Source: a virus
Taxonomy: Duplodnaviria; Heunggongvirae; Uroviricota; Caudoviricetes
Length of the DNA stretch: 6,045 bases
Virus record (IMG/VR): IMGVR_UViG_2671180755_000006
Direction: 5' to 3' (one strand)
Positions 2,978 to 2,993 of this stretch are shown piece after piece (position 1 is the first letter of the stretch; each line of letters starts with the position of its first letter). The position numbers and the translations under genes are program-made. The notes under the pieces were generated by a model. It saw only the letters and a program-made list of their open reading frames with translations, ran no database searches and was not told the DNA's origin.

Positions 2978-2993
2978 TATGGGAATTCCCATA
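2978..2993. repeat. perfect 16-bp palindrome TATGGGAATTCCCATA, candidate operator or RNA hairpin
   Basis: Exact self-complementarity seen directly; contains GAATTC. Lies between the mini-ORF stop (2967) and the putative hok promoter -35 (3008). Confidence 0.6.

What the first reader, a model, noticed from the sequence alone, without database searches (positions are those of the whole stretch)
2978..2993. Perfect 16-bp palindrome at the upstream edge of the hok promoter
TATGGGAATTCCCATA is exactly self-complementary, which is unlikely by chance in a short intergenic region. It sits about 15 bp upstream of the putative hok -35, suggesting a dimeric regulator site or a boundary hairpin. It contains an EcoRI site.
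Basis: seen in the sequence. Interest (0 to 1): 0.4.

Follow-up and report, generated by a model that had tools for sequence, protein, structure and literature searches.

The report
KilA-N gene hairpin remnant beside hok
The palindrome is real, but it is not a part of the hok promoter: it is the slightly decayed core of a hairpin-forming repeat left over from a KilA-N-type phage gene, and in intact KilA-N genes this same hairpin is kept by compensating mutations, which seems not to have been described before.

Summary
TATGGGAATTCCCATA is at 2978-2993 and is exactly self-complementary. On its own it is weak evidence: 8.7% of shuffled windows hold a palindrome this long.

Relatives show that it is not chance. 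The same site carries a perfect 22-26-bp palindrome, (C)CGATATGGGAATTCCCATATCG(G), and the window copy has lost one base.

It is not part of hok/sok. 933W/Sp5-type hok loci have a nearly identical promoter (homologous from about -43) and lack it, and homology to them starts at window 3000.

The palindrome and its left flank (2962-3003, minus strand) are a roughly 40-bp remnant of a KilA-N-domain gene, reading DMGIPI...

In 58 distinct KilA-N genes sampled without regard to the palindrome, the repeat over codons D-M-G-I-P-I-S shows almost no synonymous change. It is kept by paired changes, some of which alter amino acids (ATG/CCC, ACG/CCC-GTA, ATC/CCG). Distant paralogues keep a stem with loops of 3-11 nt, which fits a nucleic-acid hairpin rather than a fixed-spacing dimer site.

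Best reading: an inherited hairpin remnant at a mosaic joint, probably with no role in hok control. A residual role as a transcript hairpin or a binding site is not excluded. The function of the hairpin inside KilA-N genes is unknown.

The parts
2978..2993 (.). Perfect 16-bp palindrome TATGGGAATTCCCATA, the finding itself
   Evidence: It is the only perfect palindrome of 12 bp or more in the window.
2975..2997 (.). Full inverted repeat CCG-TATGGGAATTCCCATATCGG. This is the ancestral 24-bp palindrome with one base (A) deleted between 2977 and 2978, which leaves T2994 bulged.
   Evidence: Relatives carry CCGATATGGGAATTCCCATATCGG or ACGATATGGG...ATATCG. The predicted RNA hairpin is -12.8 kcal/mol with one bulge, against -14.5 to -21 kcal/mol in relatives.
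2962..3003 (-). Remnant of a KilA-N-domain gene. The minus strand reads ..P-D-M-G-I-P-I-R-N-E-F.., where intact genes read ..S-D-M-G-I-P-I-S-E-L-I-Q..
   Evidence: nhmmer with a DNA profile of 54 KilA-N genes: minus strand 3003-2962, E 1.8e-5; plus strand only 1.4e-3. Relatives score better: L028 3.3e-10 over 49 nt, L003 4.2e-9, L078 5e-8. A blastn hit falls inside KilA-N genes of E. coli phages.
2863..2967 (+). Small hydrophobic ORF of 34 aa (MSDDISLVMEGALAVIAVVGVYCLVVFLMERLGN). Its stop codon lies inside the remnant's flank, and the palindrome starts 10 nt after the stop.
   Evidence: Annotated as hypothetical protein WP_001278460.1 in the identical RefSeq locus. ORF list. No Pfam match.
2822..2843 (+). 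Left copy of an imperfect direct repeat, GGGTAAAAACGTTCGCCGGGA, at the end of a 25-aa small ORF (2750-2827)
   Evidence: The 933W junction sequence aligns both here and at 2996-3017. 933W-type loci hold one copy and lack everything in between.
2996..3017 (+). Right copy of the direct repeat, GGGCAAAACGGTTTGCTGTAA. Homology to palindrome-free hok loci starts here, and it contains the hok -35.
   Evidence: Hits to 933W, CFT073 and others begin at query position 301, which is window 3000. Alignment.
3008..3035 (+). Inferred hok promoter: -35 TTGCTG at 3008-3013, a 16-bp spacer, and -10 TAGAAT at 3030-3035
   Evidence: Read from the sequence and placed relative to the start of the Rfam hit. The consensus scan did not list it, because the -35 matches only 3 of 6. 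This part is inference.
3042..3216 (+). hok mRNA leader with the sok-complementary region. The hok ATG is at 3211, and the sequence is masked from 3238.
   Evidence: Rfam RF01794, 114.9 bits, E 2e-26. hokD is annotated in the identical RefSeq locus.

Best explanation
The palindrome is the surviving core of a 22-24-bp hairpin-forming inverted repeat. That repeat belongs to a roughly 40-bp remnant of a KilA-N-domain gene lying on the minus strand (2962-3003).

In intact KilA-N genes the repeat overlaps the codons for (S)-D-M-G-I-P-I-S and is held by selection on base pairing, not only on the protein. The palindrome was therefore inherited ready-made. It was not shaped by the hok promoter.

In this Sp14/CP-933U-like prophage the gene itself is gone. 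The remnant, together with a 34-codon small ORF, lies between two imperfect direct repeats at the left edge of the hok/sok cassette.

It most likely plays no dedicated part in hok control. What it can still do is fold into a hairpin, identical on transcripts of either strand.

Shown: the sequence, its longer perfect form in relatives, its absence from other hok loci, its homology to KilA-N genes, and the covariation inside those genes.

Inferred: the lack of a role at hok, and how the joint arose (deletion or insertion between the direct repeats).
For: 1. The window is 100% identical to an E. coli O157:H7 prophage locus.

2. Relatives carry perfect 22-26-bp versions. In 120 hok-linked loci fetched by their flanks only, 94 have the perfect 22-24-bp form, 22 have the window's one-base deletion, and 4 have single point changes.

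3. 933W, STEC306 and CFT073 hok loci have promoters homologous from about -43 but no palindrome. About 4700 of 5426 E. coli genomes match the query, nearly all through its hok part. Only 983 hold the palindrome, and 663 hold the window-type arrangement.

4. The KilA-N profile hits are strand-specific and extend into the left flank. In vB_EcoS-613R10-like phages an intact KilA-N gene with this exact 22-mer lies on the opposite strand, with the 22-mer about 550 bp upstream of the hok mRNA start.

5. In 22 KilA-N genes below 97% nucleotide identity, codons D, P, I and S of the motif show zero synonymous variation. Other conserved Gly/Pro/Ser/Leu columns show 1.5-2.2 bits of codon entropy.

6. Across 58 distinct sequences, pair 17-28 is UA 46 / CG 12 with none unpaired, and pair 18-27 is GC 50 / CG 8 with none unpaired. 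The covariation score is 0.221, against 0.095 +/- 0.009 in shuffles (0 of 500 reach it) and at most 0.056 when partners are slid. It is the only covarying helix within 160 nt.

7. Distant paralogues keep a stem-loop at the same place, with different sequences and loops of 3-11 nt.

8. This prophage has no KilA-N gene and only this one copy of the palindrome.
Against: - Across hok-linked arrangements the palindrome is an island of identity. L003 and L004 differ at 6 of 30 positions just to its right and at 0 of 22 inside it (hand-counted). In L028/L078 most of both flanks are different DNA, apart from the short KilA-N-derived stretch to the left. That hints at constraint, or at a mechanical role in recombination, rather than a passive leftover.
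- Stand-alone copies also occur in regulatory intergenic DNA elsewhere: cro-cII, Q-holin, upstream of a parDE cassette, and an iteron-rich region in about 45 Dhillonvirus genomes that have no KilA-N gene.
- Nothing here measures hok promoter activity with and without the element.
- The relatives are closely related prophages, so perfect conservation may only reflect recent spread.
Confidence: 0.6

Rival explanations
1. The stand-alone hairpin is still functional at the RNA level. One version has it as a 3'-end, stabilising or insulating hairpin for rightward transcripts that end upstream of hok (the small ORF here, paa/adfO or an ORF6N gene in relatives). The other has it as a barrier to leftward transcripts leaving the sok side. 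Either would keep read-through RNA away from the hok promoter and the 5' end of the hok mRNA.
For: - It lies 10 nt after the small ORF's stop codon here. It lies a few nt (L028) to about 13 nt (L078) after the stop of an ORF6N gene, and about 20 nt after the primase-helicase stop in Dhillonviruses.
- Several unrelated intergenic copies lie 15-64 nt after an ORF end, or next to canonical terminators.
- The hairpins are stable, at -12.8 to -21 kcal/mol.
- The palindrome is better conserved than its right flank.
- From established hok biology, an exact 5' end is needed for the 5'-3' pairing that keeps hok mRNA inert.
Against: - There is no U-tract on either strand, and the terminator scan lists only the hok terminator at 3347-3364.
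- Most hok loci do without it.
- The window copy is weakened by a bulge, and that variant has spread in O157 (22 of 120 loci).
- No transcript-end data were available.
Confidence: 0.22
2. It is a binding site for a dimeric DNA-binding protein supplied in trans, for instance a KilA-N or ORF6N-type protein of another prophage in the same cell. That protein would activate or repress the hok promoter from about -57.
For: - It has perfect dyad symmetry. Covariation reaches the pair next to the dyad centre (GGA/ATT, GGG/ATC, GGT/ATA; pair 21-24), and a 4-nt hairpin loop would not require that pair.
- The exact E. coli-type 22-mer recurs in three unrelated E. coli phage settings.
- KilA-N is a predicted DNA-binding domain (PF04383; Iyer, Koonin and Aravind 2002, from my own knowledge).
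- O157:H7 genomes carry 4-6 copies of the palindrome.
Against: - It is absent from hok loci whose promoter is homologous from about -43.
- Its distance to -35 differs by about 19 bp between arrangements.
- Stem sequences differ freely among KilA-N genes, and loop length varies from 3 to 11 nt in paralogues. A fixed dimer would not tolerate that.
- Neither this prophage nor Dhillonvirus 'rolling' encodes a KilA-N protein.
- It does not resemble the immunity operators.
Confidence: 0.1
3. The palindrome acts mainly as a recombination or breakage hotspot that defines a module joint. Hairpin or cruciform formation would stimulate deletions and illegitimate joins, which would explain why hok cassettes and other cassettes end at it.
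For: - Homology to palindrome-free hok loci starts 7 bp after it.
- KilA-N homology ends at the palindrome's edge on the hok side in both hok-linked arrangements.
- The segment that contains it lies between direct repeats.
- L028/L078 can be turned into the window type by deleting between two ATCGGG repeats (read from the sequences).
- A similar copy sits near the end of a parDE cassette inserted into an MFS transporter gene in Xenorhabdus.
Against: - The copies were found by searching for the palindrome, so 'remnants always keep it' is partly ascertainment.
- The profile carries little information beyond about 25 nt on either side, so the true limits of each remnant are uncertain.
- No recombinase or target-site signature was found.
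- This explains the location of the element, not a function. It is compatible with the best explanation.
Confidence: 0.07
4. It is a chance palindrome with no history or meaning.
For: 8.7% of shuffled windows hold a perfect palindrome of 16 bp or more. The 16-mer also occurs at about the chance rate across 596 Gb of genomes: about 140 are expected by my arithmetic, and at least 120 were found before the scan reached its limit.
Against: Relatives hold a longer perfect version. The flank homology to KilA-N genes is strand-specific. The identical 22-mer occurs in three E. coli phage settings, where about 0.0003 chance copies are expected in the 2.3-Gb phage collection (my arithmetic).
Confidence: 0.01

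Closest known systems
hokW-sokW of Stx phage 933W / Sakai prophage Sp5, and the R1 hok/sok family of type I toxin-antitoxin loci
   Same: The cassette to the right of the palindrome is a member. The Rfam hok/sok model hits at 114.9 bits, it is 91.6% identical to 933W hokW over window 3000-3237, hokD is annotated in the identical RefSeq locus, and the promoter hexamers are the same as in 933W.
   Different: The palindrome lies outside the cassette, at -50 to -65 upstream of the mRNA start. 933W/Sp5 lacks it, although that locus works as a toxin-antitoxin system (PMC8621323). None of the described hok cis-elements (tac, ucb/dcb, fbi, the Sok target; from my own knowledge of the Gerdes-lab work) lies upstream of the promoter.
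KilA-N domain genes (Pfam PF04383) of phages, prophages and giant viruses
   Same: The 22-mer is identical to the codons for (x)DMGIPIS in E. coli-phage KilA-N genes. The left flank matches the following codons (GGAATGAATTCA against GGAATTAATTCA). The orientation relative to hok is the same as in phages that have the intact gene next to hok.
   Different: Only about 14 codons remain, they are broken by the one-base deletion, and no ORF or domain is left. As far as I could find, the nucleotide-level hairpin inside these genes is not described: there is no Rfam family and no paper that holds the sequence in a phage context or that links KilA-N with a palindrome (a broader search with hairpin terms, listed none among its top 15).
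Intrinsic terminators and 3' stabiliser hairpins (for example REP/BIME elements) in intergenic DNA
   Same: A stable GC-containing stem-loop a few nucleotides after a stop codon, symmetric on both strands.
   Different: There is no U-tract. The copies whose context was seen (about 60 of 986 records) lay in intergenic DNA or inside KilA-N genes; whether any lie outside prophages was not checked. Its sequence derives from a coding region.
Dimeric repressor operators of lambdoid prophages (CI/Cro type)
   Same: Perfect dyad symmetry of operator-like length, near a promoter.
   Different: It is a single copy and does not overlap the promoter. It is unrelated to the TTAGATT-type repeats between this prophage's cI-like and cro-like genes. 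It is absent from hok loci whose promoter is homologous from about -43.
Baculovirus hr palindromes with an EcoRI core, found in genomes rich in bro genes (Bro-N is related to KilA-N). This is a resemblance recalled from memory and was not tested.
   Same: Palindromes of about 30 bp centred on GAATTC, in viral genomes that carry KilA-N/Bro-N superfamily genes.
   Different: No sequence homology was examined. The hr elements are intergenic enhancers and origins bound by IE-1. This is only a lead.

Membership tests
hok/sok cis-elements (type I toxin-antitoxin) | Lies within the hok mRNA or the Sok RNA (5' tac, ucb/dcb, Sok target, 3' fbi) | tested here: not met
   The Rfam model starts at 3042 and the palindrome ends at 2993.
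hok/sok cis-elements (type I toxin-antitoxin) | Present in other members of the family | tested here: not met
   Absent from 933W, STEC306 and CFT073. 983 of 5426 genomes have the palindrome, against about 4700 that match the query, nearly all through its hok part.
Operator of a dimeric regulator of the hok promoter | Overlaps or closely abuts the core promoter, or is repeated, at a fixed distance | tested here: not met
   A single copy centred near -57.5. It lies about 19 bp further away in L028/L078.
Operator of a dimeric regulator of the hok promoter | A cognate regulator gene nearby, or similarity to the prophage's known operators | tested here: not met
   Whole-prophage annotation and tblastn. 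The immunity-region repeats are unrelated.
Operator of a dimeric regulator of the hok promoter | Protein binding to the site | not testable with these tools
   Needs a gel shift or footprint.
Intrinsic (Rho-independent) terminator | Stable GC-containing stem-loop | tested here: met
   -12.8 kcal/mol here, and up to -21 kcal/mol in relatives.
Intrinsic (Rho-independent) terminator | A run of U directly after the stem | tested here: not met
   The tails are CGGGCAAAACGG (+) and GGAAUGAAUUCAG (-). The scan lists only 3347-3364.
KilA-N gene (PF04383) remnant | Strand-specific nucleotide homology to KilA-N genes that extends beyond the palindrome | tested here: met
   nhmmer gives E 1.8e-5 on the minus strand against 1.4e-3 on the plus strand. 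Relatives reach 3.3e-10 over 49 nt. blastn gives 88.9% over 36 nt inside a KilA-N CDS.
KilA-N gene (PF04383) remnant | An intact ORF encoding the domain | tested here: not met
   No ORF and no significant tblastn hit. It is therefore a remnant, not a gene.
Conserved KilA-N intragenic hairpin (defined here) | An inverted repeat over the x-G-I-P-x codons, kept by compensating changes | tested here: met
   The window copy has the E. coli-type sequence with one deleted base.
Dispersed host repeats (REP/BIME, MITE or IS ends) | Many copies outside prophages, or paired terminal repeats with target duplications | tested here: inconclusive
   Copies in E. coli genomes lie in unannotated DNA or in KilA-N genes, with a median of 3 sites per positive genome. 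Only about 60 of 986 records were seen. Direct repeats flank the segment, but there is no transposase and no terminal inverted pair.
Any Rfam family | A match to a curated covariance model | tested here: not met
   Nothing overlaps the palindrome in the window, in a KilA-N gene or in the Dhillonvirus copy, even at E up to 5 in the window and up to 1 in the other two.

The most novel reading that the evidence does not exclude
The inverted repeat is a portable cis-element in its own right, not just a gene fragment. It would be a hairpin or dyad that KilA-N-family proteins, or another conserved factor, recognise. Its presence inside the KilA-N coding sequence would then be a self-targeting control site. 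Stand-alone copies occur upstream of hok, upstream of a parDE cassette in Xenorhabdus, between cro and cII, between Q and the holin gene, and in the iteron-rich region of Dhillonviruses. These would tie those loci to KilA-N-type regulators acting in trans in cells that carry several prophages.
Probability: 0.12. Interest if true: 0.85.

Novelty: new variant of a known kind. Interest (0 to 1): 0.58.

Why it matters
For hok/sok, the result is a caution. This conspicuous palindrome is not a hidden regulator site of a classic toxin-antitoxin promoter. It is inherited debris at a module joint, and it shows how lambdoid prophage mosaics are stitched together.

The larger point is what the palindrome led to. 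A widespread family of phage genes (KilA-N, often toxic or anti-repressor-like) carries inside its coding sequence a hairpin that is conserved from enterobacterial prophages to metagenomic and jumbo-phage relatives. Pairing is strong enough to dictate which amino-acid pairs may flank the invariant G-I-P motif (M with I, T with V, A with A, and I with I plus a switch of the Pro codon).

That implies an undescribed layer of control or a structural requirement on these genes. It is directly testable with synonymous and compensating mutations. It also gives a sequence tag for tracing KilA-N remnants and stand-alone copies in phage regulatory regions.

Tried and rejected
- **Immunity operators.** I compared the palindrome with the prophage's cI-cro intergenic repeats. 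They are unrelated.
- **Rfam.** I ran it at gathering and at permissive thresholds on the window, on a KilA-N gene, on a Dhillonvirus copy, and on three other loci. Only hok/sok and tRNAs matched.
- **Literature.** Searches for the sequence, for KilA-N with palindrome, hairpin or operator, and for Dhillonvirus repeats turned up nothing relevant among the papers listed (the hairpin search matched 16,000 papers, of which only the top 15 were seen).
- **Scan of 596 Gb of genomes for the 16-mer.** The hits are near the chance rate. They are mostly KilA-N genes, unrelated terminator-like hairpins, or a Firmicute repeat, so the scan says little about hok.
- **Promoter and terminator scans.** No promoter or terminator involves the palindrome.
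- **Search for a KilA-N protein.** tblastn found none in this prophage or in Dhillonvirus 'rolling'. The weak longer protein alignments around the remnants are not significant.
- **Strand test.** I counted G-U against A-C mismatches in the stems to tell the sense strand from the antisense strand. There are about 4 of each, so the test is uninformative.
- **Internal start codon.** The ATG inside the hairpin could be an internal start, but T, A and I variants lack it.
- **Protein-level co-evolution as the cause of the covariation.** Rejected, because third codon positions follow pairing exactly: Thr is always ACG, and Pro is CCC or CCG according to its partner.
- **Templated (quasi-palindrome) mutation without selection.** Not excluded as a contributor. 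It does not explain the zero synonymous change at four codons.

Full report
**1. The observation**

The window reads ...GAACTGAATTCATTCCG TATGGGAATTCCCATA TCGGGCAAAACGGTTTGCTG... The 16 bases at 2978-2993 equal their own reverse complement. No other perfect palindrome in the window exceeds 10 bp.

On the window alone the evidence is weak: 8.7% of 1000 first-order Markov shuffles hold a perfect palindrome of 16 bp or more.

The Rfam hok/sok model hits 3042-3216 on the plus strand (114.9 bits). I infer a -35 at 3008-3013 (TTGCTG) and a -10 at 3030-3035 (TAGAAT). The palindrome therefore ends 14 bp before the -35, and its centre lies near -57.5.

**2. Where the window comes from**

The region 2700-3237 is 100% identical to a lambdoid prophage of E. 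coli O157:H7.

- The prophage carries espJ and an EspF-repeat gene and sits beside a tRNA-Ser gene. By my own knowledge this is the Sp14/CP-933U type.
- The window runs from just after the replication genes through small nin-region genes, hok, a DUF968 gene, rusA and Q, to the tRNA genes.
- Two stretches are masked with N.

**3. Relatives show a longer, perfect palindrome**

In related prophages the same site reads ACGATATGGGAATTCCCATATCG (22 bp perfect), CCGATATGGGAATTCCCATATCGG (24 bp) or CCCGATATGGGAATTCCCATATCGGG (26 bp).

The window form, CCG-TATGGG...ATATCGG, is the 24-bp form with one A deleted from the left arm.

To avoid selecting on the palindrome itself, I fetched 120 hok-linked loci through their flanks only. 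Their forms were:

| Form | Loci |
|---|---|
| Perfect 22-24-bp palindrome | 94 |
| The window's one-base deletion | 22 |
| Single point changes | 4 |

The predicted hairpin is -12.8 kcal/mol here, against -14.5 to -21 kcal/mol in relatives. The feature is real and is older than this copy, which is slightly decayed.

**4. It is not part of hok/sok**

- Hits to 933W hokW, CFT073 and thousands of other hok loci begin at query position 301, which is window 3000, seven bases after the palindrome.
- 933W and STEC306 share the same -10 and nearly the same -35, plus the AAAACGGTTTGC block. Upstream of that block they run straight into the end of a small ORF (..ICRWR*).
- The window has a homologous small ORF ending at 2827 (..ICRWG*), followed by GGGTAAAAACGTTCGCCGGGA.
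- The 933W junction aligns both there and at 2996-3017. So window 2833-3006 lies between imperfect direct repeats, and 933W-type loci lack it. That segment holds a ribosome-binding site, a 34-codon hydrophobic ORF (2863-2967) and the palindrome.
- About 4700 of 5426 complete E. coli genomes match the query, nearly all through its hok part. 663 hold the window-type arrangement, and 983 hold the palindrome in any setting.
- The palindrome-free Sp5 hokW-sokW locus is an experimentally working toxin-antitoxin system (PMC8621323).

**5. What it is: a KilA-N gene remnant**

A scan of viral contigs for the 16-mer gave at least 120 loci. Of these, 55 are hok-linked. Most of the rest lie inside KilA-N-domain genes, where the bases encode D-M-G-I-P-I-S (GAT ATG GGA ATT CCC ATA TCG).

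Four lines tie the window copy to these genes.

- Read on the minus strand, the window gives P-D-M-G-I-P-I-R-N-E-F. The undeleted relatives give D-M-G-I-P-I-S-E-(stop)-I-Q-F. Intact genes give D-M-G-I-P-I-S-E-L-I-Q-S-F.
- A DNA profile of 54 KilA-N genes hits the window on the minus strand (3003-2962, E 1.8e-5) better than on the plus strand (1.4e-3).
- The same profile hits the relatives more strongly, with homology running 13-25 nt into the left flank: L028 3.3e-10 over 49 nt, L003 4.2e-9, L078 5e-8.
- In vB_EcoS-613R10-like phages an intact KilA-N gene with the identical 22-mer lies on the strand opposite hok, with the 22-mer about 550 bp upstream of the hok mRNA start.

This prophage has no KilA-N gene and only one copy of the palindrome. 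The stop codon of the upstream plus-strand gene lies inside the remnant's flank, both here and in the L028/L078 arrangement, where that gene encodes an ORF6N-domain protein.

**6. Why the parental sequence is a palindrome**

I took two samples of KilA-N genes that were not chosen through the palindrome. One came from viral contigs via six peptide patterns. The other came from metagenomes via the GTWVHP motif only.

*Synonymous variation.* In 22 genes below 97% nucleotide identity, the codons are:

| Codon | Observed |
|---|---|
| Asp | GAT 21/21 |
| Pro | CCC 22/22 |
| Ile | ATA 20/20 |
| Ser | TCG 19/19 |

Other conserved Gly, Pro, Ser and Leu columns use 4-6 codons, with 1.5-2.2 bits of entropy.

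*Compensating changes.* Across 58 distinct 45-mers, pairing is kept by changes that alter the protein on both sides of the invariant G-I-P:

- Met ATG with CCC-ATA
- Thr ACG with CCC-GTA (Val)
- Ala GCG with CCC-GCA (Ala)
- Ile ATC with CCG-ATA
- Asp GAT with ..A, against Glu GAA with ..T
- Asp..Ser(TCG) against Val(GTT)..Thr(ACG)
- At the centre: GGA ATT, GGG ATC or GGT ATA

*Formal counts*:

| Measure | Result |
|---|---|
| Pair 17-28 | UA 46 / CG 12, none unpaired |
| Pair 18-27 | GC 50 / CG 8, none unpaired |
| Cells paired | 83.6%, against 33-48% with slid partners |
| Covariation score | 0.221, against 0.095 +/- 0.009 in shuffles (0 of 500 reach it) |

Because third codon positions obey the pairing (Thr is always ACG), protein co-evolution cannot explain the pattern. 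In 160-nt windows this is the only covarying helix.

*Distant paralogues.* In distant paralogues on very long (up to ~400 kb) viral contigs the peptide changes completely (VGIS, SDTRFSGIT, STARETRIT). A stem persists at the same place with loops of 3-11 nt. The folds have z-scores of -1.3 to -3.2, so this support is only moderate. Variable loop length fits a folded single strand (RNA or single-stranded DNA) better than a fixed-spacing dimer site.

Against that, the pair next to the dyad centre also covaries, which a 4-nt loop would not need. Strand asymmetry of wobble pairs is uninformative. The molecule that folds, and its function, remain open.

I found no Rfam family and no paper describing this hairpin.

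**7. Other stand-alone copies**

- The exact 22-23-mer lies about 20 nt after the primase-helicase gene, inside an iteron-rich intergenic region, in about 45 Dhillonvirus genomes. It is duplicated in PNS1. Phage 'rolling' has no KilA-N gene.
- Similar units of about 45 nt (palindrome plus GGAAYWAATTCAA) lie in four other settings:
  - between cro-like and cII-like genes (L034);
  - after a Q-like gene (L187);
  - 60-85 nt before a holin gene (L217);
  - about 165 bp upstream of a parD-parE cassette inserted into an MFS transporter gene in Xenorhabdus (L154).
- These may be remnants left where accessory genes come and go, or working copies. Because I found them through the palindrome, the fact that they all retain it is partly ascertainment.

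**8. Weighing the readings for this window**

*For an inert remnant:*
- it is absent from most hok loci;
- the window copy is damaged, and the damaged form has spread;
- its distance to the promoter varies;
- no partner protein is encoded nearby;
- it has no U-tract.

*For residual function:*
- the palindrome is an island of identity between divergent or unrelated flanks (0 of 22 differences against 6 of 30 just to its right between L003 and L004);
- it always lies shortly after an upstream stop codon.

I put about 0.6 on 'inherited hairpin remnant at a mosaic joint, with no dedicated role at hok'. I put about 0.22 on a transcript-level hairpin role, about 0.1 on a protein site acting in trans, and about 0.07 on a mainly recombinational role.

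**9. Novelty and verdict**

The hok cassette is known. The palindrome beside it is a newly recognised remnant of a known gene family. The conserved, covarying hairpin inside KilA-N genes appears to be undescribed, and it is the interesting outcome. I rate the finding a new variant of a known kind, with interest 0.58.

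Noticed in passing
L252-L331 and L402-L481 (KilA-N genes), e.g. 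L252:1170-1195; alignments A2 and A3: A 22-26-bp inverted repeat overlaps codons (S)DMGIPIS of KilA-N genes. It shows almost no synonymous change and many compensating changes, including paired amino-acid replacements (M/I, T/V, A/A, and I/I with CCG). No Rfam family or paper was found for it.
   Followed up: yes
L250:2000-2560 and L251:2000-2560 (Dhillonvirus 'rolling' and PNS1): The exact 22-23-mer palindrome sits about 20 nt after the primase-helicase gene, in a roughly 530-bp intergenic region full of TGTCCCGC repeats and GCAACCAAT boxes. It is flanked by a direct repeat of about 30 bp, and PNS1 has a 54-bp tandem duplication of the unit. The region looks like an origin or regulatory region.
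   Followed up: partly
L154:3720-4540 (Xenorhabdus ehlersii): A ParD-like/ParE-like toxin-antitoxin cassette appears to be inserted into an MFS (mdtH-like) transporter gene. A KilA-N-type palindrome unit lies about 165 bp upstream of parD, near the end of the insert.
   Followed up: partly
window 2750-2827 and 2863-2967: Two tiny hydrophobic ORFs lie directly upstream of hok: 25 aa (MSRPDAFAGVAIAIAFLVYVICRWG) and 34 aa (MSDDISLVMEGALAVIAVVGVYCLVVFLMERLGN). The first has a counterpart before 933W hokW. The second is annotated in RefSeq but has no Pfam match.
   Followed up: partly
window 2998-3011: A second small inverted repeat, GCAAA-ACGG-TTTGC, overlaps the inferred hok -35. The AAAACGGTTT core is shared with palindrome-free hok loci.
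   Followed up: no
window 3238-3346 and 4837-4870: These are runs of N (masked sequence). The first run is 88 nt shorter than the real sequence, judging from the coordinate offsets to the identical RefSeq locus (L001). Window coordinates after 3238 are therefore shifted relative to the genome.
   Followed up: partly
window 5857-5929, 5940-6013, and from about 6027: tRNA genes lie downstream of the Q antiterminator gene. They are annotated tRNA-Ile, tRNA-Arg and tRNA-Arg in the identical locus, as in Stx-phage late regions.
   Followed up: no
L137, L147-L149, L158, L173, L175-L177 and about 20 more genome-contig loci: A recurrent element..AAGGGTATGGGAATTCCCATA(A/G)TAGAATTT(A/G)T.., occurs in many gut Clostridia and Bacilli MAGs, twice in L148. 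It is unrelated to hok or KilA-N and has no Rfam match at gathering score.
   Followed up: partly
L107:13850-13920: Two adjacent related palindromes, CGATATGGGAATTCCCATATCG and CGTTACGGGAATTCCCGTTTCG, lie 16 nt apart in a GC-rich viral contig. They read ..DMGIPIS..VTGIPVS.. in one frame.
   Followed up: no
L028:4067-4747: In the second hok-linked arrangement the gene ending just before the palindrome encodes an ORF6N-domain (Rha/anti-repressor-like) protein. Its last codons and stop are made from the KilA-N remnant's flank.
   Followed up: partly
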